Below are positions 1 through 52,464 of a stretch of DNA of 64,000 nucleotides, piece after piece (the stretch's first letter is position 1; each line of letters starts with the position of its first letter). The notes under the pieces were generated by a model, which did not search any database, was not told where the DNA came from, and was given only the letters and a program-made list of their open reading frames with translations. Source of the stretch: Eledone cirrhosa. Lineage: Eukaryota. The translations under genes were made by a program, and so were the position numbers. Location: NCBI GenBank assembly GCA_964016885.1, contig OZ024754.1, positions 22,010,001 through 22,074,000 on the forward strand, read 5' to 3'.

Positions 1-2876
1 TGTTTTTTTGTCGTGACACCTACACGATCTCATTTGTTTCGGCCTCGATGGCGCGGCACCAACATAACTTTACATAGAACGGGGTGGTGTGGATCGGGTG
101 GGGGTGGGGGTGGTGGGACGGGGTGTATTTTGTTAGAGATGCCTACTGGCTGGAGTAGGTTTTACTATATATTTAGGTAAGGCGGGTCTTCTCTGTTACT
201 GAGTACCGCCAAAGGTCTCGGTCCAGTGACATTGTCTTGGAGAGGTGTAAGTGTGTGATGTCGGAGTTTATCAGCTCGTCCCAGGTTTTTCTAGGTCTGC
301 CTATTCCGTGACTACCGTCTATCTTTATTGCCCTGCACTTTGTTATACAGCTATCGACTTTCATGCGCATCACGTGTCCATACCAACGTAGCCTTCTCTC
401 GAGTAAACAACATCTGATCCCTCTTATCTCTAATTTATTCCTTAGTTCGTTTATGCTTTGCCGTTCACGTATATTACTGTTACACATCCAGCGGAGCATG
501 CAAGCTTCGTTCCTCTCTAGTCTGCGTATATCCTCTGCACACAATGCCCAGGTCTCACTGCCATGCAGCATTGCTGTTCGTATGCAGGCATCGTACAACC
601 TGCCTTTCATTTTTAGTGAGAACCCTTTAGCAGCTAATAGTGGTATAAGCTCTCTGAACTTTTTCCAACCAGTTCTGACTCTAGCTACAGTACTTTCAGA
701 GCACCCTCCCCCACTGCTGATTTTATCGCCCAGGTAACGGAAGCTGTCCACTATTTCTATAGAACCCTCTGCGCAATTGAAAGAGCTAGTAGTTTGTGGG
801 CACTTGCTGCTACTTATTGCACCAGAGCACCGGCCACATGTAAAATCTATGTTCTTAGTTAGCTTACCTGTGATCCCACTACATCTTTTATGCACCCATA
901 CTTTGCATTTAGGACATAAAATGGAGTTTCTACCTACGCCTTTCCTACACACCGAGCACGACCATTTCCCCGAAGGGACCGCCGCCTTGTTTTCTTTCCT
1001 ACAAACTAGTACTTTGGTCTTAGCCAGGTTAATTTTAAGTCCTTTTGACTCTAGGCCGTGCTTCCATGTTTGGAATTTCTTCTCTAGCTCGGCCATTGAT
1101 TCCGCTATGAGTGTCAGGTCGTCTGCGTATAGGAGTTCCCATGGGCAGCCTGTCTTGAACTCCTCTGTTATAGCCTGAAGGGCAATAATAAATAGTAGTG
1201 GACTGAGAACAGAGCCCTGATGGACGCCGACTTTTACGCTAAACTCTTCACTATATTCGTTGTTAATTCTAACCTTGCTGACTGTTTCTTTATACATGGC
1301 TTGTATAGCCCTCACAAGCCATTCGTCAACGCCTAGTTTTCTAAGAGCCCACCAGATAATGGAGCGGGGGACTCTGTCGAAGGCTTTCTCCAAGTCGACA
1401 AAAGCTAAGTAGAGGGGTTTACCTTTAGCTAGGTACTTCTCCTGTAGTTGTCGTACTATGAAAAGAGCGTCTGTGGTACTTTTGCCTGACACAAACCCGA
1501 ACTGCATTTCATCTAGGTCAATTCTCTCTCTGATTAGTTGCGCTATTACTCTTTCCGTGACCTTCATGACCTGGTCGATTAATTTAATGCCTCTATAGTT
1601 ACTCCTATCTAGGGCGTCTCCTTTACCCTTATAACAGTTAACGATGATGCTGCTATGCCAGTCCTTCGGAACAACCCCGTTCTGTACGACTTGGTTAACT
1701 ATGCGGGTGACCATGGTGTGTCCCACCGTGCCAGATGCCTTCAGCATCTCAGCAACTATTTCCGAAGGCCCAGCCGCCTTACCAGTCTTCATATCCTTGA
1801 TTGCCTTACTTATTATACTCCCCTCGACTAACACTGCTGGTCCCTCTATTGGGTCGATATGGGGGAGACTGCCTTTCTCCCAATTATTCTCCTCATTTAG
1901 AAGCCTTTCATAGTGACACTTCCAAGCTACCTTCTTATCAGCGTCGGTGATGGCAAGTGTGCCATCGTCGTTTAGTACACACTTCTCCCCGACAATATCA
2001 CGGTTTTCCTTGACGCATTGCCTAGCAATCCTGAACACCTCACGTTTTTGGTCATCGCGTTGTAGAACATGCTTGAACTTTCTTTCCTCAGCTTCCCTTC
2101 TTGCTAAGTACACTTGTCTCCTAGCTTCCCTCCTGGCCACTTGATAGTCCTCTCTACTTCCCCCATCCCGCCATACTTTCCAAGCCTGCTTTTTGGCCTT
2201 AATTGACCCCTCCACCTTACTGTTCCACCACCATGTTACTCTCCTCCTGCCTACAGGCCTGCTCCAGCCACAGACCTCGTCTGTCGCCAACAGCAGGTTT
2301 GCTTTCAGAAATTCCCACTCTCCCTCTATATTGTCCGACTCTAAATGTTCTTCCTTACTGTCGAAAGCATCAAGTAATATGCTTTGAAATTTATTCCTGG
2401 CTGTGGGGTCCTTTAGCTTCCATATTTTCCTCCTGAGGATAGTCCTCTTCTGTTGTCGAGTACGTCTCGTCCTGACTATGAGGTCGCTAATTATCAGTCT
2501 ATGTTGGGAGGTGCATTCTTCATGGGGGAGGGATTTAGTGTTAACAACAGACACTCTGTCACGTCTTCTGGTAAGGATATAATCTACCTGGCTTGTGTGT
2601 TCCCCGGATCTATAGGTGATCAGGTGATTGTCACGTTTTTTGAAGTTAGTGTTACAGATAGTTAGGTTATTTGCATCACAGAATTCCAGGATTCTGGAGC
2701 CTTCCTCATTTCTAGTACCAAACCCATAGCCTCCATGGATTTCGTCGTAGCCGTCACAATGTTGTCCAACGTGACCATTTAGGTCGCCTGCGATAATTAT
2801 ATAGTCACTGTCGGATATTTGGGAGGTAGTTAGCATCAGTGTCTCATAGAATCTGTCTTTTATAGTGCCGGGCACT
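1..2876 (-). mobile_element. RTE-clade LINE, 5'-truncated (partial APE endonuclease + RT + PHD-like finger); 3' UTR runs off the window start
   Basis: ORF 173..~2876 has [20 protein letters not shown] (APE), [30 protein letters not shown] (RT) and [10 protein letters not shown]. It ends abruptly in (TA)n at 2877. Confidence 0.92.
173..2876 (-). CDS. Uninterrupted but 5'-truncated EN-RT polyprotein (~900 aa)
   Basis: No internal stops. The N-terminal ~175 aa of the listed 1075-aa ORF come from microsatellite and retrozyme sequence and are not part of the element. Confidence 0.85.
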
Positions 2877-2891
2877 ATATGTATGTATATG

Positions 2892-2948
<57 letters not shown>

Positions 2949-2975
2949 GTATATATATGTATATGTATATATATG

Positions 2976-3006
<31 letters not shown>

Positions 3007-3007
3007 G

Positions 3008-3038
<31 letters not shown>

Positions 3039-3051
3039 GTATATATATATG

Positions 3052-3121
<70 letters not shown>

Positions 3122-3171
3122 CATATATATATATACGTACATACATATATGTATACAGACGTACAGTAGCA

Positions 3172-3217
<46 letters not shown>

Positions 3218-3237
3218 CAGGTACACATACATATACG
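2877..3237. repeat. (TA)n/(TATG)n microsatellite containing an inverted fragment of family A
   Basis: Direct reading; ~3133-3237 is the reverse complement of ~3436-3535. Confidence 0.85.
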
Positions 3238-3265
3238 AACGTTCAACCATCTGGCAGAAGGGTAT

Positions 3266-3308
3266 ACGATGCTGATGATAGCTAACAAGCTTGAAACTAG
3301 TACATCGT
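3266..3308 (+). ncRNA. Type I hammerhead ribozyme (family A)
   Basis: ACGATG-CTGATGA-T AGCT AACA AGCT T-GAAA-CTAG-TA-CATCGT: stem I, core, stem II, palindromic mini stem III, GUA cleavage triplet. Confidence 0.85.
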
Positions 3309-3459
3309 TCCTGTGTCAGTGTTGAACAAAAAGGTGACGTGGTTGCCTTAACACCGTACGGCATAAATTCAGGCTGTTCAGTTTGTTTACAAACGAACAA
3401 AGCGGGCGCTATAATAAGCGTCCGCTAAACTGATACGTACATATATGTATGTGTACCTG

Positions 3460-3495
<36 letters not shown>

Positions 3496-3727
3496 TGCTA
3501 CTGTACGTCTGTATACATATATGTATGTACGTATACATACATACTTACATTTAAGTAAGTGCCGTACTAAGAGTGAGAAATGAAATTTCGTTTTCATTTT
3601 ATTACAACTTGTCGTTCTCGGTACGCCTGGCCGGACTCACTCGATATGCAAATTAGGCTGCTCAGCCGTTAATTTTCATAAGGAAAGTATATACTTTCGA
3701 ACGTTCAACCATCTGGCAGAAGGGTAT

Positions 3728-3770
3728 ACGATGCTGATGATAGCTAACAAGCTTGAAACTAGTACATCGT
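3728..3770 (+). ncRNA. Type I hammerhead ribozyme (family A, second tandem copy)
   Basis: Identical to 3266-3308, 462 nt downstream. Confidence 0.85.
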
Positions 3771-4053
3771 TCCTGTGTCAGTGTTGAACAAAAAGGTGAC
3801 GTGGTTGCCTTAACACCTTACGGCATAAATTCAGGCTGTTCTGTTTGTTTACAAACGAACAAAGCGGGCGCTATAATAAGCGTCCGCTAAACTGATACGT
3901 ACATATATGTATGTGTACCTGTATGTATATATATGCATGCTACTGTGCGTCTGTATACATATATGTATGTACGTATACATACATACTTACATTTAAGTAA
4001 GTGCCGTACTAAGAGTGAGAAATGAAATTTCGTTTTCATTTTATTACAACTTA

Positions 4054-20873: not shown

Positions 20874-20974
20874 ATATATATATATATATACATATATATA
20901 TACATATATATATATACATATATATATACATATATATATATATACATATATATATATACATACATATATATATA

Positions 20975-21454
20975 TGTATGTATGTACACGTACATACATA
21001 TATGTATACAGACGTACAGTAGTATGTATATATATATATACATATATGTACACATATATATGTACGTATGGATTCACCGAACATTTATTATAATGCTCGT
21101 TGTGTTTGTAAACAAACATCCCGAATTAAGCCGTACAGTGTCTAGCAACCATCGTTGCTCATTTGTTCAACACTGACAAAGGAACGCTGTACTAGTTTCA
21201 AGCTTATTAGCTATCGTCAGCAACGTATACCTTCCTGCCAGATGGTTGAACGTCTGAAAGTATATACTTTCCTTATGTATATTAACGGCTGAGCAGCCTA
21301 ATTTGCATATCAAGTGAGTTAATCGGCCGGGGTACCGAACTAGTACAGTGTTCCTTTGTCAGTATTGAACAAATGAGCAACGTGTACATACTTATATTTA
21401 GGTAACAGCCGTACTAAGAGTGAGAAATGAAATTTCGTTTCATTTTTTCCGTTT
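20975..21454 (-). mobile_element. Family A copy (minus strand) with inverted, internally deleted segment 21340-21454
   Basis: Homology to 3238-4051; HHR at 21184-21226(-) with CTGACGA core and stem I ACGTTG/CAGCGT. Confidence 0.85.
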
Positions 21455-21462
21455 ATATAGAT

Positions 21463-21917: not shown

Positions 21918-21950
<33 letters not shown>

Positions 21951-21951
<1 letters not shown>

Positions 21952-24900
21952 AACGTTTGAATATGTATAATAAAGCCAAAACAATGCAGGTATGGACATA
22001 GAAAAAAGAATGCAATTGCAAAAGATATTGTTGACAATTCGTCTTTTACCTTAGATTTATTTAAATGTCCTTAATTTTCGAGATAATATCTCTTCTTCAG
22101 AGGGAAATAAAGGTCTCAAACCAGCGTTCTAAATATCTTGCCAAGCCATGCTGCCAGGAAATAGTATAGATTATCTGTTCTATCTCTAATGTCAAAGAGT
22201 TAAAATTAGGTGGATAAAGAGTAGTCTCCCTTTAAAAGGGGTTTGTTTAGGTTTTTTTTTATATACATGCCTGTTTAAGTGTGTGGGAGAATGCATGAAG
22301 GTGTGAGTGTGTGTGTGTGCGTGTGAGAAGATAAGTCTATTCGTAAATGTGGGGGATAGGTGTTATCTGGTGTTAGAACTGGTTTTGTGTGTGTATGTGT
22401 GAGAGAGAATAAGTGGAGGTGTAAGCGTGCGTGTGTGTGTATGGGGTGTGTAAATATAGGGCTAGAAGCCCTATCAGGTTATAAATTGGGTGTTGAGTTC
22501 TAGTCTATTATTGATAGGTGGTTGTGTTTTATCTATAATTAGTGCTTCCTTAATTCTAAGATTGCCGAGGTTTCTTTCCTTAGTTTCTATCCTAACTGTT
22601 ATGGTTTTGTCGGTGTTTTTGCATTTAACTAGGTGTTTCTTAAATGAGGAAGCGTTAGTATTGAGGTGTTCTTTTATTCTTATGTGGAGTGGTCTGGTGG
22701 TACTACCTACATAGAAGTTGTTGCATTTGTCACACTCTAGTCTGTATATGACGTAAGCCTGGTGGCATAGGTCTGTGTCGTTGATGGGGCAGTTGGCTAG
22801 TCTGCAGCAGTTGTCATGTCTGGTGGAGTGTCTTTTGGCTAGCTGTCCGCGCAGAGAAGGACCTGAGTGGGCCAGTTGGATATCTAGTCCTTCTCGTCTG
22901 ATGGCTCTGCGGATGGCTGTTGTTGTTTCTTCACTGAAGTGTGGGAGCTTCAGGAAGCAAGTGTTAGTGCCTCGGGTGTGGTGTCCTCTGTTCTTTCTGG
23001 CACGGTTTGTGGTGGATGTAGTGTATCCGTTCAGTTTGAGTACTTCCAGGAAATGTGTGGTGTGTGTGTCTCGGTCTCTGGCGTCGGTGCATTTGTTTTT
23101 GATACGTGCCAGTTCGTTCCTTATGTATCCGAACTTGGCACCGAGTGGGAGGGCCGATCTGAAATGTACGAACAGGTCCCTGCTGGCGGATTTTTTATAG
23201 AAGCAGGTGTGGATGTTGCCTTCCTCTGTTACCCTGAGTTGGAAGTCCAGCAGGGATAGGGATCCGCGGTCATCGGGGTATTCCATGCTGAACTTTATAC
23301 TGGCGTCCATGCTGGAGAATATTGTGTATATTTTATCTGCCTCCTCACGGGATGTAAGGATGAGTATGTCATCTACATATCGGGTGAAGAAGGCATGGGA
23401 ATGGCAGGTGTTGAGGGCTCGGTATTCTAGCTGGTTCATGTAGGTGATGGCCAGCAGGCCCGAAAGGCTGGATCCCATGGGTAATCCTGTTGTCTGTCTG
23501 TATGTGTGGTGGTGGAAGGTGAAGTACGTGTTGTCTACTGTGAAGGACAAAAGCTGGTGTATGTCCGTCGGGTGGAGGCCGTAGCAGTGGATGTTCTCTG
23601 CGACCACGCAGTCCGTCAATAAATCGACAGCTGGGTGAGCGGGGACTGTAGTGTAGAGGGAGACAACGTCGAGGCTAAAAGCGTATTTATTTAGTTTAAG
23701 TTGTTCTGGCTGGAGTTGGTGTAGTCTACGTATGACTTCGTCGGAGCTACTGACATGCCCGGGAAAGGTGGAGAGTAGAGGCTTGAGGACCTGGGAGAGA
23801 AGCCAGGAAATTTTGTATAGGGGTCCTTCTATGCTAGAGACGATGGGTCTTATTTGCGTCTTAGTGCTATTCTTGTGGGTCTTGATGAGGTGGTAGAAAG
23901 TGGGCAGCCTGCTATTTCTAGTGGTGTAGTTGAGCTTAACTTTATTTGGGAGTTGTCTTCTCCTACAGATATCGAACCAGATGGAGTTGGTCTGTTTTTC
24001 GATCTGGGCTGCAGTCATGTCCGGCATCTCTGTGTATAGTTCATTGTCGCTTAGGTGTTCAAAGGCTAGGTTATTGTATGTGGCTTGAGAGATGACGCAA
24101 AACTCTTTACCTTTGTCGGATGGTAAGTATATAAGTTCCTTATTCCGTAGGTTCTTCAGGGCGAGTTGTTGTGTCCTGGAGAGGTTTGGGGCTATCTTCT
24201 TCTGTTTCCGTAAGATGTTAAATACGGAATGTTTTAGTCTCGAGAGTTTTTCTTCAAGCTCGCGGTTGGCAGGCGGTGGCCAGAGTGGGTGATCTAGTTG
24301 GTATATCGGGAATCTGGGTTTGATAGATTCCGTGGTGTTGTTGCCGAGAGTCGATATCCATTTTAGTTGGTATGCAGCCCGACAGAAATTCGTTACTATG
24401 TCGAGCCATAGTTTGTCATCCAGTCTCTGTTTCAATATGAACTTGGGACCCAGGCTGAGGAGGTCTAATTCCTCTCTTCTATAAAAAAGCCGCCAGCAGG
24501 GACCTGTTCGTACATTTCAGATCGGCCCTCCCACTCGGTGCCAAGTTCGGATGCATAAGGAACGAACTGGCACATATCCGGAACAAATGCACCGACGCCA
24601 GAGACCGAGACACACACACACCACACATTTCCTGGAAGTACTCAAACTGAACGGATACACGACATCCACCACAAACCGTGCCAGAAAGAACAGAGAACAC
24701 CACACCCGAGGCACTAACACTTGCTTCCTGAAGCTCCCACACTTCAGTGAAGAAACAACAACAGCCATCCGCAGAGCCATCAGACGAGAAGGACTAGATA
24801 TCCAACTGGCCCACTCAGGTCCTTCTCTTCGCGGACAGCTAGCCAAAAGACACTCCACCAGACATGACAACTGCTGCAGACTAGCCAACTGCCCCATCAA

Positions 24901-25803
24901 CGACACAGACCTATGCCACCAGGCTTACGTCGTATACAGACTAGAGTGTGACAAATGCAACAACTTCTACATAGGTAGCACCACCAGACAACTCCACATA
25001 AGAATAAAAGAACACCTCAATACTAACGCTTCCTCATTTAAGAAACACCTAGTTAAATGCAAAAACACCAACAAAACCATAACAGTTAGGATAGAAACTA
25101 AGGAAAGAAACCTCGGCAATCTTAGAATTAAGGAAGCACTAATTATAGATAAAACACAACCACCAATCAATAATAGACTAGAACTCAACACCCAATTTAT
25201 AACCTGATAGGGCTTCTAGCCCCATATTTACACACCCCATACACACACACGCACGCACACACACACACGCTTACACCTCCACTTATTCTCTCTCACACAT
25301 ACACACACAAAACCAGTTCTAACACCAGATAACACCTATCCCCCACATTTACGAATAGACTTATCTTCTCACACACACACACTCACATACTTACACCTTC
25401 ATGCATTCTCCCACACACTTAAACAGGCATGTATATAAAAAATATATATTAAAAAAACCCTAAACAAACTCCTTTTAAAGGGAGACTACTCTTTATCCAC
25501 CTAATTTTAACTCTTTGACATTAGAGATAGAACAGATACTCTATACTATTTCCTGGCAGCATGGCTTGGCAAGATATTTAGAACGCTGGTTTGAGACCTT
25601 TATTTCCCTCTGAAGAAGAGATATTATCTCGAAAATTAAGGACGTTTAAAATAAATCTAAGGTAAAAGACAAATTGTCAACAATATCTTTTGCAATTGCA
25701 TTCTTTTTTCTATGTCCATACCTGCATTGTTTTGGCTTTATTATACATATTCAAACGTTTATACCTCATTACACAATGCTTCAAGTGAACTATAACCTCC
25801 TCC
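21951..25803 (-). mobile_element. PLE (YVDD type, Penelope/Poseidon-like) with ~1.25-kb inverted duplication
   Basis: Minus-strand ORF, then plus-strand inverted copy 24476-25759 of 21951-23203. Minimal HHR-like motifs at 22067-22105(-) and 25605-25643(+): CCT-CTGAAGA-AGAGAT..ATCTC-GAAA-AT-TA-AGG. Confidence 0.92.
22474..24478 (-). CDS. PLE RT + GIY-YIG endonuclease, 5'-truncated, uninterrupted
   Basis: SDKG, KTHK, IRPIVS, SLDVVSLYT, GLPMGSSLS, RYVDDI, VIYRLECDKC..YVGST.R. Confidence 0.9.
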
Positions 25804-25830
25804 TATATATATATATATATATATATATAT

Positions 25831-28800
25831 GTCATAACGACAGCCATTATTGGCACCCCAAAAGTCACACCAGTGCTGCTGCTGAACGTCAGAGGCCTGG
25901 TGAAACTAACTAACATGAGTAAAATTTCCTACCTGGGAGACTTAGCCATAAGCAATCAAGCATTATGCATGGCACTAACCGAAACGCACCTGACAAGCAG
26001 TATAGCAGATGCAGAAATACATATAACGAAATATACTGTATTTTGTTTGGACAGGAAGGAGAGAACCCATGGTGGAGTTGCTCTGTATATCCGTGAAGAT
26101 GTCACACCAATTGTACTGTTGACACATTCAAACTCAGTCTATGACACACTGATAGTACATATGAAGCAACTAAAGACAATAATATGTGTCACATATCGGC
26201 CGCCCGATACCCCCAGTCATGAGGGTAAATTTGAGGATAGCCTCAGTAGGATAGAAGAGGTCCTTGACAAACTGGACCAGGGTCTCAACATTCTACTGAT
26301 GGGAGACTTCAACCTACCAAAGGTAAAATGGTCTGAGGGCCACCTCCTCCCTGGAATGACGTCAATAGAACAGAGACAGACGGAATCCCTGCTGGCCCTC
26401 ACACACAGGCTGTTCATGGAACAAGCAGTACTCCTCCCAACAAGAGGCGAAAATGTCCTGAACCTCTGTTTTACAAACAACGAAGTGCTCATCCACAATG
26501 TAAAGATGACACCAACAATTTTCTCGGATCATAACTTAGTAGAACTAATGATATGTGGTCCGAGGGAACCAACAGAGACACAACACCAAGATGCTCCGGG
26601 ACGTTATCCAGCCTTAACTTCTACAAGGCTAATTGGAAAAAGATAAAGAGAGAAATCCGAAAGCAAATATGGAGCGAAAACACCGCCACACTAGACACCA
26701 ACACACAATTTCAACACTTCATGACAATGATACACACTATATGCAAAATGTTTGTCCCGGAGAAAAAGGCAAACAGACACAAAAATCTTATTTCTAGAGA
26801 TAGGAAAATCCTTATGAGACGTAGGACCAAGCTCTCGAACCAGTTGAATGCTCAACAAGAAAACAAAAACAAGAAGGAATCCTATTTGAAACGTGCACTA
26901 CTTGACACCGAGATTGCAATCAAACTTTCCCATGAAAATGAGAGGGCAAAGAAAGAAAGCAGGGCTATAGAAAATATTAAAACACACTCTAAGGCCTTCT
27001 TCAAATTTGCAAAAGAAACTGCCTCGGTACACTGCAAGATTGGGCCACTCTTCCATACAGACGGTTCATTAACCGAGAATCCCCACGAGATATGTGAAAT
27101 ACTGAACGAACAGTACAAAAGTGTGTTCATATGTCCACTGAGGCACATGCAAATAACAAAGCCAGAGGAGTTCTTTGATGCCACAACACTACAAGAAGAA
27201 ATGGCGACCATCAACCACATAGACATAACGGAGGAGGATGTGGTATACGCCATAGATGAAATTTGAACAGACTCAGCTGCTGGATCTGATGGATTCCCAG
27301 CAGTTCTCTTAAAAACATGTAAGCGGGCCTTAGCAACTCCACTGAAGATGCTCTTCAGAAGCTCCTTGGATAGCGGCATACTACCCAGGGAGCTGAAAGA
27401 AGGCACAATATGCCCTATCCATAAAGGAGGTAGCAGAGCGGAGGCCAAAAACTATAGGCCAGTCTCCCTGACGTCGCATATCAGTAAGGTCATGGAGCGA
27501 ATCATCAGAAAGAAACTGATCACTTTCCTCGAGCAAAATGACCGCCTGACTAGCACGCAGCATGGCTTCCGCCCAGGAAGAAGCTGCCTTACACAGCTGC
27601 TACATCACTACGACTGGGTACTGAAACAAGTTCTAGAGAGCTCACATGTGGACCTGATATATCTTGACTTTGCGAAGGCCTTTGATAAGGTTGACCATGG
27701 AATGATATGTCCCAAACTACACGGACTCGGCATAACTGGAAAAGTAGGTGAGTGGCTGCATGACTTCTTAAAGGACAGAAGCCAGACAGTCGCAGCAAAC
27801 GGGGCCCTCTCAAAGGAAAGATCAATAACAAGTGGCGTGCCCCAAGGGACAGTCTTGGGACCACTACTGTTTTTGGTGGCTCTCTCAGACATGCCCTCTG
27901 TAGTACATACAACAACATCCCTCACTAGCTATACTGATGACACTAAGGTAGCACAGGCAATCAAAAACCCGGCTGACGCTGCCCTTTTACAACAAGATCT
28001 GGATGCCATATACAAATGGGCGGAAGAAAACAACATGCAGTTTAATGCTGGCAAATTCCAAGCCCTACAATACAAACCTGCAAACACAAATACAGTAAAA
28101 CACAGTTGTTACGCAGGACCAGGAGGGACCGATATCCCCGTGTCAAAATCAAATACGAGACCTGGGTATAGACATGAGCGATGATGCATCTTTTTCCTCA
28201 CACATCATGAAAGTGGCAACAATGTGCAGACGACTCGCTGGCTGGATCTTGAGGACTTTCCGAACAAGAGACCGAGACACCATGTTGACACTATGGAGGA
28301 CATTTGTCCTAAGCTGCCTGGACTATTGCTCCCAGTTGTGGTCACCCCATAGTGTCAAACTAAACACGGAGCTTGAGACAATCCAGCGAAGCTACACCAA
28401 GAGGATTGCCACGATGAAGGAGATAAGCTACTGGGAGAGGCTAAAAGAACTGCAACTCTACTCCTTGGAACGAAGACGGGAGAGATACTCAGTGATCTAC
28501 ATAAGAAAAATCCTGGAGGGACTAGCACCAAACTTTGGCATTGGGAGCTGGACCAACTGTCGAACAGGACGTCACTGTGTGGTGCCAAAGGTCCCGTCTT
28601 CCACATCTAGAATAAGGAGCAGATATTGCAATAGCCTGGGGTTCAAGGGCCCTCAACTCTTCAACAAGCTGCCGAGGGATCTGAGATATCTTCATGGTGT
28701 GGATGTCTTCAAGAAACATCTCGACACCTTGCTATCCAGGATCCCGGATGAGCCCACAGCAAGGCACGAGGGAAACCTAAGGGCAGCGGCAACAAATCCC

Positions 28801-28915
28801 TCTTACACCAGTGGCCAACCTATACAGGCTGGAGATAAAATGTGTAGCAACAAGGGCGGTGCCCCAGCATGGCCTCAGCCGGATGGCTTGAACAGGTAAA
28901 AGAGTAAAAGAGTAA
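25831..28915 (+). mobile_element. CR1-group LINE ORF2, decayed (APE + RT split by frameshifts and stops) with (GTAAAAGA)n tail
   Basis: LTETHL, YRPP, GDFN, SDH; YLDFAKAFDKVDH, SGVPQGTVLGPLLF, SYTDDTK; LYSLERRRERY. Pieces at 25873-26646, 26553-27266, 27348-28184 and 28174-28899. Confidence 0.92.
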
Positions 28916-30058: not shown

Positions 30059-31963
30059 ATGGCGGAGCCACGCCCCCTAGAGGCGGGTCTGCTGTCGTGC
30101 AACGGCGACTTGAGCGTTGAGAGGAGAGGTGGGGCGAGGAGCGCCACCAGCACGAGTGTGAGCAGCGACAGTGCCAGCACCAACGGGCCGAGCGGCGCGG
30201 AAGGTGGTAACAACGACAACACCAACACCAACAAGCCGAACAGCGCAGAAGGTGGTAATAGCGAGAGCACCAACAAAACGAACAGCACAGAGAGTAATAG
30301 TAGCGACAGCAGCAGCACCAACAAGGCCAACAGCACAGAGGGTAACCACGACACAGGGGAGAACAACAACAGCAATAGCAGCAGCAACACCAACAAGAAC
30401 AACAACAGTGACAACAAGAACACCTTCGCTGCTGTGGCAGCGGCTAAAAGGAGACCATGCTACAGCACCGACTTAACCAACAGAGAGGAAAAGTTGGCCC
30501 AGGCCTGGAAAATCATAAATCAAGAGCAGACCTGGGCAAACTTAACTGTCCCGGCAGAAGCCATTGAGGCAGTGGAAAAAAGAACGGTGCATTTCAGATG
30601 CATCTCAGTAGAGACAAAGAGGGCAGCGATAATCGCCCAAGCTGATATAGAAGCCGCACTGAAATACATCAGAGAGGACACAGACTTCATAGAGAGGGGC
30701 AGGCAATACGGCACCGTTTCGGTGCTGTTCAAGTCTGAAGCCCTCGCTGTGAAGCATTCAATGACCCCTTGCAAAACCAGCAAGGTCATAATGTACCCCT
30801 CCCACATGGGAAAACGAATAGCACGTGTGCGCATTCCCAGGATTCCACCAGGACTTGATATGTGGTGGCTCCTGGGTTGCGTAATCGTGGAAGGAACGGA
30901 TACAGTCCCGGTAGAGGCAACGAGAACTGCCAGGGACGACTGGTCCGGGGTTGATCTGGAGATACTGCTCCAAATCAGACCCGAAAACATAAAAGCAATC
31001 CCGGACCACATCCGCCTCCAAAACGGGAGGGTGTTGCATATAATGACTGAGGGCAAAAGGCCGCATTGTTTCCTTTGTGGGGAAACGACACACTTGCGAG
31101 CCTTCTGCCCTCAACTGCCGAAAAGCGCAAGGGGTTGAAAGATTCCACTGCTGGCGACGCCGGGACAAGGACCACCAGCAACACCGTCAACAATGGAACC
31201 ACCAAAATTGCACACCCAGGGGGGAAACGAGGAAAGCTCTCCCATTCCCCCTCCCACCCAAAATACACACACGAACAAGAACATAAACACTCACTCAGAC
31301 ACAAACACGCTCACAGCCACAGACCCCTCATCCTCCAGCAGTGAAGATGAGGGAAAACCAAAGTCCCCCAAAATACAAAAAACAAAACACAAAAAAAAAA
31401 GAAATCCACAAAGCACAAACACCCCCACAAAAAAAAATACACACACCACCCACACAAACACTTTCCCCACAGCATCACCAACACAACCACCAAAATCCCC
31501 CAAACGCAAACAAGCTAAACAGACACAAGAACAAATAGACACACAAACATCAGAAACTACAGACACCCCACCCACAACAAACGCAGACACAATAGAAACA
31601 ACACTAACAAAGCTATCACCTCCACAATCACACGAACAAATAAAACCCGAGCAACAAAACATTAAAAACTTCGTGCTTGCCAGAAGGGCCAACAAGGAAT
31701 TGATGGCCCATGTAGCACGAAGCACAAACATCGAAAAAGAGGGGGAAACATTTGAAGCGAGCACATTTCGCGTACCAGATAATTTGCTTCTGATGCGAAT
31801 GTCGCTCGCTTCATACAAAGAAATTCGAAAGAGCTTTCCTCGGGATGTGGGAACCCCGAACGTAAAACCCACTTCAAGACTATTAAAGGGGTTCCCAAAA
31901 GAAACCCCACAAACCATGGAGGTCGAACCACCCGACCTTCACAAGACCCCGGAAGGTAAGTAA
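30059..31963 (+). CDS. L1/Tx1 ORF1 (gag-like, CCHC zinc knuckle) with one in-frame TGA at 31136-31138
   Basis: CFLCGETTHLRAFC. ORFs 30059-31138 and 31193-31963 are in the same frame (offset 1134) and the intervening codons are open. Confidence 0.8.
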
Positions 31964-31992
31964 ACCTTTCCTCTCCCATTCATCCTGCCAGC

Positions 31993-34900
31993 ATGGCCAT
32001 AAGAGTAGGAAGTTTAAATGTTCGTGGCCTGGGGTCGCCCTGGAAGCAAGGTCACTTGCTCAACGACCGCAGGTCACTAGGAATGGATGTAATTGCCATC
32101 AGCGAGACCAGAATTTCCGACACACGCGCACTGGCGCCGATTTTCGATGATTATCAGATCTTTGCATCTGTTAGTCGGCCGGGAATGGGAGGTGGAGTGG
32201 CTGTGCTGTTTAGGAAATGTCTGGATCTCGAGGTAAGGTCAATCTTCCGGGATCCTGACGGAAAGTTGGTGGTCCTGGACGTGAGCAATAGCGAAGGTGG
32301 TGCCTTTAGACTGGTGGCCGTCTACGCCCCTACTGGGGCCGGTCGGCCGGACTTCTTTAGGCGCCTGGAAAACTTTCTGCTTACGTCTCGCCCTTTACTG
32401 TTAATAGGGGATTGGAATGGCATCTTAGAAGCACGCTGGGATTGTGTGGGAGTATCTGATAGGAGCGGGGGGTGCAAAAGCCTCAAGTACCTGATCAGCC
32501 AGTTTCAACTGTCTGACAGGTACCGACTAGATTTCCCTAATGCGCCAGTATGGACCTGGATCAATCGCATAGGGTCATCTAGATCGTACATAGATAGGAT
32601 TTTCATTAGGAAAAGAGATAGAAATAGTGTAGGATGTCCACATTTTAAAACGGTTGCCTATTCAGATCACAAGCTTGTGATCTGTATGGTCGACCTAGAT
32701 AAGACACGTAGGTTAGGACCTAGCTACTGGAAGCTAAACATGTCGTTTCCGGCACGTAGAGCTTACAGGGACCGGGTCAACAACTTAGTTAAGCAAAAGT
32801 TGACAGGGGGGGTTGTCAACAACAGGTGGTGGGGGGCTCTCAAAAGAGAGATTAGAGCAACCTCGATAGGATTTAGCAAAGAAGTAGCAATAGAGAAAAA
32901 TAGAAAGGAGGAGGGGCTGATAGCTAAGTTAGACGAGGCTATTTGTAGTGGCATTGCAACAGACGTGCTAGCGGCGAGAATGGCACTAGATCATTTCTTC
33001 AATGCGAAACACGAAGGTTGCATTGTTAGAGCTAAGGCGCGTGCTCTGAGGAACGAGGGAACCAAAGCTGCCCGATGGGCTCGCTTTGCAGAGACGCAGC
33101 GTGGAAATAAAACCACAATTCGGTCTTTGACGGATCGAGATGGACACGAACTGAGCGATTCCAAGCAGATGTGTGAGGCCTTTCGTCAGCACTTTGCTCG
33201 ATTGTTCGGGAGGATGGGTGAGCCGGAGACGGCGGCGGACTTCAGTCCCTACCTCGACGGCTTGCCACGCCTCTCGACGGCCGACGCTGAGCGCTGTGAA
33301 GAGCCAATAACATCAGTCGAAATTCAGGACGCCCTTGTCGGCTGCTCGAGTCGCAAGTCACCCGGTTTGGATGGTCTGCCCTACGAGCTTTACGTAAATA
33401 TGCCAGACTTGTTCTCCGATCTCCTCGAAGCGCTCTACTGCAACTGGCAGCAGAACGGGAGCATTCCCGGTTCTGTGAGCCATGGCGTAGTGACGCTGAT
33501 AAGGAAAGACGAGAACAAGAGGGACACACTAGATAATTTCAGGCCCATAACCCTGCTCAACACAGAGTTTAAGATTTTGGCCAAGGTGTTAGCGAAAAGG
33601 TTGGCGCTTGTCGTCAAAGATTTGGTTGGGGAGGCGCAAACTTGCGCAATCCCGACCAGGTCCATACACGACAACCTCCACCTCATGCGATACATCATAG
33701 AGAGGGTTGGGTGCAAACCTGGCTTCGGTGGGGCTCTGATCAATTTAGATCAATCGAAAGCATTCGATAGGGTCGACCATCGGTACTTGGAGGCTGTCCT
33801 CGAGGCGGCTGGCTTTGGCCCCGTCTTCAGAAGCTGGATCGCTGCAATGCACAGCTGCACATGCTCGGTGGTCAAGGTTAATGGCCACCTCTCGGAACCA
33901 TTTCAGATCTCTCGATCGGTCCGTCAAGGGTTCCCTCTCTCTTACCTTCTGTACGTACTGACTCTCGAGCCTTTACTGCGGAAGCTGGAGCTGTTGCAGG
34001 GCATCCCACTTGAACCGGGACGTGGAAAGGTGGTGTCGGCTTATGCGGACGACATCACCGTGATGGTGTCGGACACCTCGGAAATCGAGGTGATCCGCAC
34101 CCATTTGGAGGAATATGAAAGGTTGACGGGAGCAAAACTTAACCCGGAAAAGTCGGTGGGCTTGCAGCTCAGAACCTGGAGAGGCAAGTCCATGCCGTCC
34201 AACAGCGCCGTTGGGCGCTGGACAGACGGACCGGTAAAGTTGCTCGGGGTTTGGTTCGGACCAGACCTCCAGGTGGATAAGAATTGGGACGAGGTGACGA
34301 GCAGGATAGCCAACCTCACCCAGAAATGGGCTGAGAGAAAGCTATCACTGAAAGGGCGGGTGGAGGTGGCGAACGCGTACATCGCGTCCGTCATCTACTA
34401 CCGCCTGACCGTCGTGCCTTGCCCCCGTCCACGCCTCGCCAATTTGGAACGGCTCCTTTTCAAATTTTTGTGGAGGGGACGGGTCCCGTTGGTGAGGCGG
34501 TCCATCTGCTGCCAGCACCCTCTTCGTGGAGGGCTGGGCATGCCGTGGCTAATGATGCGCAGACATGCGCTGAGGCTGCGACATCTCCAGATATTTTGCC
34601 TAAACGGTGAACAGGTGTGGTCGCCGTTTGTTAGACGGGCCTTTCCGCAGCTCATCTCTTTGACTGAGCTGCAGTCCTGGGTCAAGAAGAGACAGAGACT
34701 GGGCGACTGGCATCTGGAATGTTGCCAGGCGCTCACTGCACTCTGCAAGGTGGGCAATGCGGTCAGTGGAACTTCCACTCAAGATTTCTATAGAGGATTA
34801 GTGGAGGGCAAGTACGATGACGTACTAGGAGAGGCTCTAGGCGTCAACGAAGTAGAACTGACCAGTATGTTCCGGAGGACTTTCGAGCCGGGGACGATGG

Positions 34901-35412
34901 ATAACTTCCAGAAATCCCTCGCTTGGCAGTGCTACCGGGGGGCGCTGCCGGTTCGGGATAAACTCTACAGGCACGGAAGTGCTGTCAGACGAACCTGCCC
35001 GAGATGCGCGCAGAGCGACGAAACCGTTCTGCACGCACTCGTCCAGTGTCCGTGCATTGCTGACTTGTGGGGTTATGTCGAACAGCTATTGTCGCGTGTA
35101 GAACGGATCCGGCTATCGTCCGAGTCCATAGTGAAGATTGACCCACCGCCTTCTTTTGGTCAGGAAGGGCAGGCAATTTTCCTCTGCCTGGTGGCAGTAG
35201 CGAAAGAGGTTGCATGGTGGACCAGGTTGAAAGGACTGAAGACAGACACTTTTCTCTTCGGCCAATCCCTCATCAACTTCTTCAAGTTTCACTTGGAAAG
35301 GAAGGTGAGGGTGGAGAGAGAAGTGCTGCTCCCCAGTACATTTGCTGAAAGGTGGGTGAATGTGGCGAGAATGGCCTGCGTGAGTGGGCCTACTCTGATC
35401 ATGCACCTGTAG
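31993..35412 (+). CDS. L1/Tx1 ORF2: APE endonuclease, RT, C-terminal CCHC; intact 1139 aa
   Basis: SLNVRGL, ISETR, VYAP, GDWN, SDHK; KSPGLDG, NFRPITLLN, LDQSKAFDRVDH, AYADD; CPRC..ETVLHALVQC. Confidence 0.95.
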   Translation: MAIRVGSLNVRGLGSPWKQGHLLNDRRSLGMDVIAISETRISDTRALAPIFDDYQIFASVSRPGMGGGVAVLFRKCLDLEVRSIFRDPDGKLVVLDVSNSEGGAFRLVAVYAPTGAGRPDFFRRLENFLLTSRPLLLIGDWNGILEARWDCVGVSDRSGGCKSLKYLISQFQLSDRYRLDFPNAPVWTWINRIGSSRSYIDRIFIRKRDRNSVGCPHFKTVAYSDHKLVICMVDLDKTRRLGPSYWKLNMSFPARRAYRDRVNNLVKQKLTGGVVNNRWWGALKREIRATSIGFSKEVAIEKNRKEEGLIAKLDEAICSGIATDVLAARMALDHFFNAKHEGCIVRAKARALRNEGTKAARWARFAETQRGNKTTIRSLTDRDGHELSDSKQMCEAFRQHFARLFGRMGEPETAADFSPYLDGLPRLSTADAERCEEPITSVEIQDALVGCSSRKSPGLDGLPYELYVNMPDLFSDLLEALYCNWQQNGSIPGSVSHGVVTLIRKDENKRDTLDNFRPITLLNTEFKILAKVLAKRLALVVKDLVGEAQTCAIPTRSIHDNLHLMRYIIERVGCKPGFGGALINLDQSKAFDRVDHRYLEAVLEAAGFGPVFRSWIAAMHSCTCSVVKVNGHLSEPFQISRSVRQGFPLSYLLYVLTLEPLLRKLELLQGIPLEPGRGKVVSAYADDITVMVSDTSEIEVIRTHLEEYERLTGAKLNPEKSVGLQLRTWRGKSMPSNSAVGRWTDGPVKLLGVWFGPDLQVDKNWDEVTSRIANLTQKWAERKLSLKGRVEVANAYIASVIYYRLTVVPCPRPRLANLERLLFKFLWRGRVPLVRRSICCQHPLRGGLGMPWLMMRRHALRLRHLQIFCLNGEQVWSPFVRRAFPQLISLTELQSWVKKRQRLGDWHLECCQALTALCKVGNAVSGTSTQDFYRGLVEGKYDDVLGEALGVNEVELTSMFRRTFEPGTMDNFQKSLAWQCYRGALPVRDKLYRHGSAVRRTCPRCAQSDETVLHALVQCPCIADLWGYVEQLLSRVERIRLSSESIVKIDPPPSFGQEGQAIFLCLVAVAKEVAWWTRLKGLKTDTFLFGQSLINFFKFHLERKVRVEREVLLPSTFAERWVNVARMACVSGPTLIMHL

Positions 35413-35719
35413 GCTGGTGAATTCGAGAAGGAGAGGGGTGCCCTTCCCGGGTGCCCTAGGAGCGTCGGGTGGCTCAGGACTGGTGGGGTGCTTGAGTCAA
35501 CCCTGGGTGGTGATCCCTCTTATTGGGGAACTTTCATTGTTGTATTTTTATTGTTATTTTGTTTTTTGTTATTTATACTTACTCGATCTCTATGTAAACC
35601 CCCACTGTCCCTGTCTATTGTGTTGTCCCCTATATGTCGGCCCTTGTGGCCAATAAATGAAATCATTATTATTATTATTACTATTATTATTACTTTTTTT
35701 TTTTTTTTTTTCCAATTCA

Positions 35720-38700: not shown

Positions 38701-39265
38701 TGGAGAGTTGTTTAAAGGAAAACGACCGCCACATAAACCAAAAAAGAGGTATAAGGATTCCTTGAAAGCCTCTCTGAAATACGCTAACATCTCTGCTGAT
38801 ATATGGGAAAATATTGCTGCTGATCGTAATAAATTGAGAAAGACTGTATATGAGGGAAAAGTTGCCTTTGAGGCATCTCGAATCGCATACGAGAAAGTAA
38901 AGCGGGATGTGAGGAAGGGCATTGCTGTTGCACTTCCAGACGGCGAAGGTCCTCCTATGGTGCTGACATGCAGCGTATGTGCGAGACTCTGCCTAAGCAA
39001 AGCTGGACTCGAAAGTCATCTTCGCAGTCATAAAGTAAGACCAGTGGTTGACTACCAGGCTGCTGTTGGAGATGCTACTCATCATGCTTGCCAAACAAGT
39101 GGTAGAGAATGTAAATCAGCAGGAGGGCTCAAGCGACATGCAAAAGTACACGAACTCCAACCACAGCCGACTATTCCCAGTGAATGTTTTGGTTGCCGAC
39201 TCTGTGCAAGACATTTTAGATCATTGGCTGGGCTAAAAAGCCACATTCGATCGCAGCGCTGTTAG
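35720..39265 (+). pseudogene. RTE EN-RT ORF with a single in-frame TGA (37184-37186) and three C-terminal C2H2-like fingers
   Basis: WNVRTL, LSETR, GDFNARVG, WTDH; FVDLTKAFDTV, GVKQG, LYADD; the two listed ORFs share a frame (RW*EHF). Confidence 0.9.
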
Positions 39266-43879: not shown

Positions 43880-44118
43880 ACATATACATATATACATACA
43901 TATACATACATACACACACATAAAAATACATAACTAAATATACATATATACACATACACACACACACACACGCACGTGTATACACACACACATATACATA
44001 TGTCCGCATATATACCCCTCCGTTCACACATACATGCATACACACACACACATACACACATACATCTATATATATATACACATATAAAGAGAGAGGCATA
44101 CACACACACACATACACA

Positions 44119-44395
44119 TACTTTCAGATATTCAATCATCTGACAGGAAGGTACACGATGCTGACGATAGCTAATAAGCTTGAAACTAGTACATCGTTCC
44201 TGTGTCAATGTTGAACAAAAAGGTAACGGTGGTTGCTAGACACTGTACGGCGTAATTCGGGCTGTTTGTTTACAAACAAACCGAACATTATAATAAATGT
44301 TCGGTAAACCCATACGTACATATATATATATATGTGTGCATGTATGTATATATAAATACATACTACTGTACGTCTGTATACATATATGTATGTAT
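44119..44395 (+). mobile_element. Family A partial copy with intact HHR at 44155-44197
   Basis: ACGATG-CTGACGA-TAGCT AATA AGCTT-GAAA-CTAG-TA-CATCGT. Confidence 0.85.
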
Positions 44396-44792
44396 ATATA
44401 CATATATTTATATATACATATATTTATATATACTTATATGTATATATACATATATGTGCATATATATATATATGTATATATACATATATAAATAAATGTA
44501 TATATATAAATATATATATATATATGCGGGTGTATGCGGGTGCTCATGCTTATGCATATACTTGTATGTAGCTGTATGTTAACGGAACCCTGCCCAACTG
44601 TGAGTGATAACATTTCTTATTTTTCATTCTTATTTTTATTTTTATTCTTATTTTTATGTTTACTTTTATTTTACTCTTTTCTTATTTTACTCCTTTTACT
44701 TTACTCTTTAAACTCCTCCCAACTTATGGTATCCCCACATATATTCTTGTTTTGGCTTTGTCAATGCTTGTATACTATGTATTTACTCTTTA

Positions 44793-48895: not shown

Positions 48896-48927
<32 letters not shown>

Positions 48928-48934
48928 TATGTAA

Positions 48935-49687
48935 TTATGTACACGTACATACATATATGTATACAGACGTACAGTAGTATGTATATGCATACATACATGC
49001 ACACCTATATATATGTACGTATGGGTTTACCGAACATTTATTATAATGTTCGGTGTGTTTCTAAACAAACAGCCCGAATTATTAGCTGTACAATTATTAA
49101 CATTATAATAAATGTTCGGAAAACCCATACGTACATATATATATGTGTGCATGTATATACATACTACTGTACGTCCGTATACATATATGTATATACGTGT
49201 ACATACTTATATTTAGGTATCAGCCGTACTAAGAGTGAGAAATGAAATTTCATTTTTTCCATTTATCATTCACGGTACGCCCGGCCGACTAACTCACTCG
49301 ATATGCAAATTAGGCTACTCAGCCGTTAATATGCATAAGGAAAGTATATACTTTCAAACGTTCACTCATCTAACAGGAAGGTATACGGTGTTGATGACAG
49401 CTAATAAGCTAGAAACTAGATCATCGTTCCTTTGTCAGTGTTGAACAAAATGGCAACGATGGTTGCCGAACTCTGTACGGCTTAATTCGGGCTGTTTGTT
49501 TACAAACAAACCGAACATTATAATAAATGTTCGGTAAACCCATACGTACATATATATATGTGTGCATGTATGTATATATATACATACAACTGTACGTCTG
49601 TATACATATATGTATGTACGTATACATACTTGCATTTAAGTATCAGCCGTACGAAGAGTGAGAAATGAAATTTCATTTTTTTCATCT
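48935..49687 (+). mobile_element. Family A partial tandem with inverted 5' segment (48935-49082); HHR degenerate
   Basis: The TACTAAGAGTGAGAAATGAAATTTC segment occurs twice (~49227, ~49650). HHR at 49385-49427 has a TTGATGA core and GAAACTAGAT. Confidence 0.82.
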
Positions 49688-51746: not shown

Positions 51747-52410
51747 AACGCTGTACTAGTTTCAAGCTTATTAGCTTGAAACTAGTACAGCGTTCCTTTG
51801 TCCGTGTTGAACAAACGAGCAACGATGGTGGCTGGACACTACGGCTTAATACGGGATGTTTGTTTACAAACACACCGAGCATTATAATAAATGTTCGGTG
51901 AATCCATACGTACATATATATATATGTGTGCATGTATGTATATATATATATACATACTACTGTACGTCTGTATACATATATGTATGTACGTGTACATACT
52001 TATATTTAAGTAATAGCCGTACTAAGAGTGGGTAAATGAAATTTCGTTTCATTTTTTTCGTTTATCGTTTTCTGTGCACCCGGCCGATTAACCCACTCGA
52101 TATGTAAATTGGGCTACTCAGCCGTTAATATGCATAAGGTAAGTATATACGTTCAACAATCTGGCAGGAAGGTATACGTTGCTGACGATAGCTAATAAGC
52201 TTGAAACTAGTACAGCGTTCCTTTGTCAGTGTTGAACAAACGAGCAACGATGGTTGCTGGACACTACGGCTTAATACGGGATGTTTGTTTACAAACACAC
52301 CGAGCATTATAATAAATGTTCGGTGAATCCATACGTACATATATATATATGTGTGCATGTATGTATATATATACATACTACTGTACTTCTGTATACATAT
52401 ATGTATGTAC

Positions 52411-52416
<6 letters not shown>
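51747..52416 (+). mobile_element. Family A partial tandem (425-bp period) starting with a fold-back in HHR stem II; intact HHR at 52176-52218
   Basis: GAAACTAGTACAGCG at 51778 and 52203; 22-bp perfect inverted repeat 51747-51768/51773-51794. Confidence 0.87.

Positions 52417-52464
<48 letters not shown>

What the first reader, a model, noticed from the sequence alone, without database searches (positions are those of the whole stretch)
3401..3426. Covarying hairpins show family A is selected for RNA structure
Seen: the hairpin AGCGGGCGCT-ATAATA-AGCGTCCGCT (3401-3426) becomes ACCGAACATT-ATAATA-AATGTTCGGT at 44280-44305 and ACCGAGCATT/AATGTTCGGT near 51874. The loop is the same, the stem is rewritten, and pairing is kept. 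HHR stem I varies between ACGATG/CATCGT and ACGTTG/CAGCGT, also keeping pairing. Other hairpins recur in the unit (GTTTGTTTACAAAC, GAAATGAAATTTC, GAAAGTATATACTTTC). Inference: a highly structured, viroid-like RNA with at least two subfamilies; the conserved AUAAUA loop may be a protein or RT recognition site.
Basis: partly seen in the sequence, partly recalled or inferred. Interest (0 to 1): 0.72.

Follow-up and report, generated by a model that had tools for sequence, protein, structure and literature searches.

The report
Retrozyme hairpin covaries, loop is dispensable
This hairpin belongs to an abundant animal jumping repeat with a predicted self-cutting RNA motif; its stem changes on both sides while staying paired, likely because the RNA must stay folded, but thousands of very young copies lack the loop, so the loop is not a required recognition site.

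Summary
The hairpin is real. It lies in a 420-560-nt tandem unit with a type I hammerhead motif and over 24,000 copies in this 3.0-Gb animal genome: a non-LTR retrozyme. Insertions are two back-to-back arms in (TA)n with two fixed ends, a Penelope-type footprint.

Across 276 copies (123 insertions), stem variants shared by subfamilies keep pairing in 15 of 17 cases, against 115 of 385 private changes. They favour sense-strand G-U over A-C and form a series of single steps, two of them mismatches. Helices whose arms lie 65 and 200 nt apart also covary. This supports soft selection on RNA structure. Template-switch repair and A-to-I editing left no detectable trace.

The loop idea fails: a very young subfamily (4,531 exact matches) lacks AUAAUA and has the same insertion ends. 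The GAAAG...CTTTC hairpin is also lost in 4,477 copies. Nothing supports viroid-like replication. Expression, cleavage and circles are untested.

The scan found this class before on other DNA of this genome. Verdict: new member of a known kind, with a clear compensatory series.

The parts
3401..3426 (+). The ATAATA-loop hairpin (10 bp, one G-U); the fastest-changing stem of the unit
   Evidence: 11 of the 19 subfamily-variable paired columns lie here
3119..4052 (.). Whole two-armed insertion: inverted partial arm (3119-about 3235, short end) back to back with 1.8 tandem units (long end at 4052), between (TA)n tracts
3266..3308 (+). Type I hammerhead motif 1: stem I 3266-3271/3303-3308, CUGAUGA 3272-3278, stem II 3280-3291 with U-U at its base, GAAA, palindromic CUAG, predicted cut after GUA 3302
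   Evidence: activity untested
3728..3770 (+). Hammerhead motif 2; predicted cut after 3764, giving a 462-nt monomer 3303-3764
3356..3567 (+). Long-range helix P1 (3356-3363 with 3560-3567), enclosing the hairpin and the TA palindrome; two pairs change on both sides
3571..3642 (+). Long-range helix P2 (3571-3577 with 3636-3642); one pair A-U in 63 and G-C in 9 of 73 copies
3433..3545 (+). Long imperfect palindrome with a variable (TA)n core; source of most unit-length variation; left out of the pair counts
3550..3610 (+). Stretch between the short and long fixed insertion ends (Penelope-type tail; inferred RT start sites)
   Evidence: PMC11167929
3646..3693 (+). Candidate U6-like promoter: ATGCAAATTAG (3646-3656) and TATATA (3688-3693); the hairpin around the TATA (3683-3698) is dispensable
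   Evidence: function inferred
3863..3888 (+). Second tandem copy of the hairpin
44131..44407 (+). Partial copy of another subfamily; hairpin 44280-44305
48925..49682 (.). Two-armed insertion of a more decayed subfamily; hammerhead core and cut triplet mutated
51747..52429 (+). Tandem copy of the subfamily with U-G in stem I and without the TATA hairpin; hairpins 51874-51899 and 52299-52324
20967..21456 (-). Rearranged copy on the minus strand

Best explanation
The hairpin is one stem of a non-coding tandem repeat with a type I hammerhead motif and more than 24,000 genomic copies; its RNA is likely cut into units and likely copied back into (TA)n tracts by a Penelope-type reverse transcriptase, and the stem likely changes in pairs because copies that stay folded spread better. 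Shown: copy number, tandem and two-armed layout, two fixed ends, stepwise stem variants that keep pairing, loss of the loop in a young subfamily. Inferred: transcription (probably from the U6-like promoter in the unit, reading through the array), self-cleavage (probably as a dimer, since stem III is one pair plus palindromic CUAG), circularisation, and the enzyme's identity. The hairpin most likely acts as a structural spacer that keeps the RNA self-paired: its sequence is free, its pairing is preferred, its loop is not needed.
For: Pair types shared by subfamilies keep pairing in 15 of 17 alternatives, private changes in 115 of 385 (p 1.8e-6). For stems defined beforehand (this hairpin and the hammerhead) it is 11 of 13 against 49 of 153 (p 2.9e-4). 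G-U:A-C on the sense strand is 9:1 against 91:73 (p 0.045). Paired columns vary less at subfamily level (19 of 129 against 34 of 117, p 0.008) though private changes fall evenly (417 and 358). Single-step intermediates exist as multi-locus subfamilies. P1, P2, P9, P10 and stem I also have both-side changes. The sense strand folds better than the antisense (-161.9 against -127.9 kcal/mol). 158 of 180 arm ends lie at two narrow sites; 47 of 58 arm pairings are short plus long. An RT plus GIY-YIG element in the window has the same back-to-back layout in (TA)n.
Against: The changes are about 11 events on one tree, not hundreds. The tool's shuffles ignore relatedness, and its count of both-side pairs is not beyond shuffles for the whole structure (12 against 9.8, 53 of 500); for the hairpin alone it is 6 against 3.9 (9 of 500). 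G-G (5 insertions) and A-C (3) intermediates spread. Two hairpin losses spread to about 4,500 copies each and are not among the 17; adding them gives 15 of 19. Stem I also has U-U in 5 loci. P10 is only 84.9% paired. Part of the structure was derived from the same alignment. The sample is pattern-picked, mostly from the first 107 Mb of one contig. Rfam finds nothing at gathering scores. No Penelope element sharing the unit's sequence was found among those tested.
Confidence: 0.8

Rival explanations
1. DNA-level template switching or hairpin correction rewrites one arm from the other, so covariation needs no selection on RNA.
For: Some steps end in a perfect inverted repeat (AGCGAACATT/AATGTTCGCT), which a template switch could make. 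The fastest-changing stem is the one with the closest arms. The unit and its insertions are rich in palindromes.
Against: The G-U at pair 6 persists in 83 insertions while pairs 1-4 positions away change. Inserted copies show no excess repair of wobbles: G>A 11 of 680 against 101 of 9,876 (p 0.17), T>C 3 of 710 against 61 of 14,572 (p 1.0). Changes come one base at a time. Arms 65 and 200 nt apart covary too. DNA has no reason to prefer G-T on one strand.
Confidence: 0.08
2. A-to-I editing of the paired RNA, fixed by reverse transcription, turns A-U into G-U and A-C into G-C, so the pattern is structure-directed mutation rather than selection.
For: 7 of the 9 subfamily-level G-U types have an A-U alternative. 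The A-C form of pair 5 sits next to a G-C form on the tree; A opposite C is a favoured editing site (recalled). An earlier AI note reports editing scars in a family of this genome (not checked on that family).
Against: No sense-strand A>G excess: 59 against 53 T>C in 775 private changes; 4 against 4 of 30 in the loop-less subfamily and 16 against 11 of 200 in a second young subfamily. Editing cannot give the C-G/G-C, U-A/A-U or A-U/U-G switches.
Confidence: 0.07
3. The AUAAUA loop is a required binding site for the reverse transcriptase or a host protein.
For: The loop is intact in 96 of 100 and 97 of 100 listed matches whose pattern left it free; no subfamily has a substituted loop.
Against: 4,531 exact matches lack it, in both orientations and long arrays, more than the 2,308 matches of the pattern for its loop-bearing sister forms. 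These copies differ by 0.0022 per site. 32 of their 33 mapped ends lie at the same two sites.
Confidence: 0.03
4. A viroid-like RNA that replicates RNA to RNA and is only occasionally written into the genome.
For: Small, highly self-paired, hammerhead-bearing unit.
Against: Only a sense-strand hammerhead motif was found in the unit. Young insertions at different loci are nearly identical, unlike an error-prone RNA swarm. Promoter-like DNA motifs are kept in the unit.
Confidence: 0.02

Closest known systems
Metazoan non-LTR retrozymes (Cervera and de la Pena 2020, PMC7229834; parts 2-3 of 6, Discussion and passages read)
   Same: Type I hammerhead in each unit of a short non-coding tandem repeat, thousands of copies, self-paired fold, Penelope elements in the same genome. 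Stem III is like axolotl HHR_Amex1 (one pair plus palindromic tetraloop); the U-U at the base of stem II is like HHR_Amex2.
   Different: The unit (416-556 nt) mostly exceeds their 150-450 range. The parts read describe no two-armed insertions, fixed ends, internal promoter or subfamily covariation. They showed cleavage and circles; here both are untested. Supplements not read.
Animal retrozymes as non-autonomous Penelope derivatives (Li, Clavereau, Pollet 2026, 10.64898/2026.07.22.740005; parts 1-3 of 5 read; supplements closed)
   Same: Meets their definition of an active retrozyme (two or more consecutive units with a complete motif); the length is within their 51-972 bp; Penelope elements co-occur.
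   Different: They link families to pLTRs by sequence; no such partner was found here in a small test. Only 1 of their 9 tested dimers cleaved, so a motif does not prove activity.
Penelope-like element tail and internal RT initiation (Frangieh et al. 2024, PMC11167929; parts 1-2 of 4 read)
   Same: Two fixed insertion ends a few dozen bases apart, AT-rich targets, hammerhead in the repeat.
   Different: This unit encodes no protein; the ends are about 57-60 nt apart against their 30-40; the start sites are inferred from DNA, not measured.
Newt satellite 2 (snRNA-type promoter, Pol II; seen only as a passage in PMC2220036; the original paper was not held)
   Same: Hammerhead satellite with an internal snRNA-like promoter.
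   Different: Here the motifs resemble the host's TATA-containing U6 promoters; the polymerase is unknown.

Membership tests
Metazoan non-LTR retrozyme | Type I hammerhead motif in every unit | tested here: met
   Core and stems by motif; 24,546 matches, control 0. Rfam has no match at gathering score.
Metazoan non-LTR retrozyme | Short tandem repeats dispersed at many loci | tested here: met
   Arrays on many contigs; 78 distinct monomers of mostly 416-556 nt.
Metazoan non-LTR retrozyme | Non-coding, low GC, no LTR pair | tested here: met
   Frames over the unit are microsatellite read-through only; GC 0.37 over 2001-4000. PBS and PPT were not searched.
Metazoan non-LTR retrozyme | Self-cleavage of the RNA | not testable with these tools
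   Needs in vitro transcription of a dimer.
Metazoan non-LTR retrozyme | Expressed as linear and circular monomers | not testable with these tools
   Needs RNA data of this organism.
Metazoan non-LTR retrozyme | Penelope elements in the same genome | tested here: met
   680-aa RT plus GIY-YIG frame at 22477-24516.
Non-autonomous Penelope derivative | Two fixed ends (tail) and AT-rich target | tested here: met
   158 of 180 ends at two sites, with (TA)n flanks; 32 of 33 in the loop-less subfamily.
Non-autonomous Penelope derivative | Sequence shared with the pLTR of an autonomous element | tested here: inconclusive
   No match at E below 0.4 with one Penelope element and four other hammerhead repeats of the window; the rest of the genome was not tested.
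Conserved structured RNA (covariation) | Both-side changes beyond relatedness and mutation bias | tested here: met
   Shared against private variants. The tool's shuffles are mixed. No tree-aware R-scape run.
Viroid or viroid-like replicon | No DNA phase; RNA-to-RNA replication, often ribozymes on both strands | tested here: not met
   Over 24,000 DNA copies with retrotransposition ends; motif on the sense strand only.
U6-type (Pol III type 3) promoter | Upstream element and TATA at host U6 spacing | tested here: inconclusive
   ATGC(A/T)AAT(T/G)AG lies upstream of 7 of 14 printed U6 loci (3 places; 15 fetched), 46-48 nt before TATA; in the unit the gap is 42 nt. Internal T4-T6 runs would hinder Pol III read-through (recalled).

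The most novel reading that the evidence does not exclude
The family is a natural mutagenesis map of what a Penelope RT needs in a hijacking RNA. The two long-range helices that covary (P1, P2) frame the two RT start sites and form the recognition domain; the ATAATA and TATA hairpins are expendable. The unit carries a captured U6-like external promoter, which survives copying only because tandem read-through plus hammerhead cuts (or a circle) bring it into the RNA.
Probability: 0.3. Interest if true: 0.62.

Novelty: new member of a known kind. Interest (0 to 1): 0.38.

Why it matters
Retrozyme folds are so far mostly single-sequence predictions in the papers read. This family gives evolutionary evidence that the fold is selected, and shows compensatory change step by step, through wobbles and short-lived mismatches. 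Two natural deletions narrow what mobilisation needs. That points tests at P1, P2 and the tail rather than at the loop. Two paper searches (listings only) showed no study of covariation among retrozyme subfamilies; subscription journals are not covered. The class itself is known, and this scan has noted it repeatedly in this genome.

Tried and rejected
Rfam at gathering score: no match in the window. Sequencing runs: no RNA holder listed, so nothing follows for expression. Contigs of four runs laid on the unit showed subfamily variants but no start, end or strand. Blind sampling was inefficient: 1 of 20 stretches of 10 kb held the family, so pattern-picked loci were used. The order of the stem changes is not polarised; direction rests only on tree neighbours and copy age. 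Several pattern tables returned nothing through my errors and were redone. An apparent four-base simultaneous change in the TATA hairpin was an arm-junction artefact; it leaves 4 false Watson-Crick events in the private control, which works against my reading. Editing bias and wobble repair were tested and not found. No partner pLTR among the elements tested. A sequence look-up of earlier scan notes gave two unrelated hits. The newt promoter paper was not held.

Full report
Observation. The window holds six hammerhead motifs of this family, one of them degenerate, and nine loop copies. The genome, G000, has 3.0 Gb. Tight patterns match 27,932 places for the hairpin region (control 4) and 24,546 for the hammerhead (control 0).

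What it is. The unit is a non-coding tandem repeat, 462 nt here, with a type I hammerhead motif whose stem III is one pair plus a palindromic CUAG. By comparison with axolotl HHR_Amex1 (PMC7229834) it would cut best as a dimer. Rfam does not detect it at gathering score, so the call rests on the motif. The finding's insertion spans 3119-4052: an inverted partial arm back to back with 1.8 units, inside (TA)n. Of 180 arm ends mapped, 84 lie at a short site and 74 at a long site about 57 nt further on; 47 of 58 arm pairings join one of each, some pairings crossing between neighbouring insertions. This matches the Penelope tail, which marks two internal RT start sites (PMC11167929). An RT plus GIY-YIG element in the window has the same layout, with ends about 40 nt apart. 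It shares no sequence with this unit, so the partner is unknown.

Data for covariation. Loci were picked by pattern, mostly from the first 107 Mb of contig C1. A profile search gave 420 hits; 144 under 120 columns were dropped, leaving 276 copies in 123 insertions. Of 374 columns, 128 poorly aligned ones were left out. A pair type counted as shared if a copy and two of its three nearest copies from other insertions had it. A change counted as private if it differed from five near neighbours.

The series. On a tree of 155 full units the hairpin forms are neighbours by small steps: ACCGA(A/G)CATT/AATGTTCGGT; AGCGAACATT/AATGTTCGGT (G-G); AGCGAACATT/AATGTTCGCT; a side form AGCGAATGTT/AATATTCGCT; AGCGAGCGTT/AACGTCCGCT (A-C); AGCGGGCGTT/AACGT(C/T)CGCT; AGCGGGCGTT/AGCGTCCGCT (U-G); AGCGGGCGCT/AGCGTCCGCT, the finding's form. 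The direction is not polarised. Five of ten pairs have both-side alternatives at subfamily level. Other helices add more: P1 U-A 39/A-U 25 and G-C 58/A-U 7, P2 A-U 63/G-C 9, P10 A-U 43/G-C 29, stem I G-U 44/U-G 16/A-U 9 among 73 copies; P9 has G-C, G-U and A-U forms.

Is it selection? Shared alternatives keep pairing in 15 of 17 cases, private changes in 115 of 385 (p 1.8e-6). For stems defined beforehand it is 11 of 13 against 49 of 153 (p 2.9e-4). G-U:A-C is 9:1 against 91:73 (p 0.045). Paired columns vary less among subfamilies (19 of 129 against 34 of 117; p 0.008) while private changes fall evenly. Against: these are about 11 events on one tree, and the p values treat them as independent. 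The tool's count of both-side pairs is 12 against 9.8 in shuffles (53 of 500), and 6 against 3.9 for the hairpin alone (9 of 500); its other measures beat all shuffles but ignore relatedness. Two hairpin losses are outside the count; with them it is 15 of 19. The sense strand folds at -161.9 (z -8.9), the antisense at -127.9 (z -4.65), though much of that energy is the TA palindrome.

Rivals. Template-switch repair should remove wobbles and change arms together. The pair-6 wobble persists in 83 insertions while its neighbours change, inserted copies show no excess wobble repair, and arms 65 and 200 nt apart covary. A-to-I editing, a lead from an earlier AI note, should give sense-strand A>G excess. 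None is seen: 59 against 53, 4 against 4 and 16 against 11. Editing as a rare source of variants is not excluded.

The loop. With the loop left free in the pattern, 96 and 97 of 100 listed matches keep ATAATA. But one locus lacked it in every tandem copy, and a search for that form gave 4,531 exact matches. Across 115 copies at 18 loci they differ by 0.0022 per site. 32 of 33 ends lie at the same two sites, and 13 of 19 loci show both. A shortened stem remains. The loop is therefore not needed for mobilisation. Likewise the hairpin around the TATA is lost in 4,477 copies that keep the TATA.

Promoter. ATGCAAATTAG and TATATA upstream of the hammerhead resemble host U6 promoters at three places (7 of 14 printed loci), with a gap 4-6 nt shorter. 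'Octamer' and 'TATA' are recalled labels. A start near 3718 is predicted by analogy. Internal T runs argue against easy Pol III read-through (recalled), so the polymerase is open. Newt satellite 2 is a precedent, seen only as a passage.

Verdict. A new member of the metazoan non-LTR retrozymes (PMC7229834; bioRxiv 10.64898/2026.07.22.740005) with Penelope footprints. Earlier scan notes describe the same class and anatomy elsewhere in this genome and call the host a cephalopod; I did not test the host label. Supplements of the cited papers were not read and may describe similar families. Interest 0.38.

Noticed in passing
window 21950-25800: Penelope-like element with a 680-aa RT plus GIY-YIG frame, two-armed, inserted in (TA)n, ends about 40 nt apart, with its own hammerhead-like motif at 22100 (-) and 25610 (+).
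   Followed up: partly
window 9882 (-), 11746 (+), 53082 (-): A second hammerhead-repeat family; at 11746 and 53082 a reverse-oriented ATGCAAAT-like motif lies about 120-130 nt upstream of the core.
   Followed up: no
window 12148 (-), 15918 (+): A third hammerhead-like family with a longer stem II.
   Followed up: no
window 173-2875 and 42185-43933: Two nearly identical copies of one LINE (RT and PHD; endonuclease in the longer one), each lying next to a copy of this retrozyme across a microsatellite; perhaps a shared target preference.
   Followed up: no
window 49357-49430; L041, L111, L188, L190: A more decayed subfamily has C and A in place of the U-U at the base of stem II and a GUU cut triplet (8 insertions).
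   Followed up: partly
L173 (G000:C1:5539600-5545300): An array whose hairpin has extra bases and a G-A mismatch in all six units; a further tolerated variant.
   Followed up: no
runs X5 and X6: Contigs like the unit, up to 285 nt at about 94% identity, occur in runs labelled as two other organisms, at low depth in X5; relatives or carry-over.
   Followed up: partly
L203-L213 (G000:C19:31.78-31.84 Mb): A tandem U6 cluster with two alternating upstream types; 6 of 11 fetched copies lack the ATGC(A/T)AAT element.
   Followed up: no
window 31960-35412, 35657-39265, 25789-28899: Further LINE frames (one of 1150 aa with endonuclease, RT and zinc finger); the window is mostly mobile DNA and microsatellite.
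   Followed up: no
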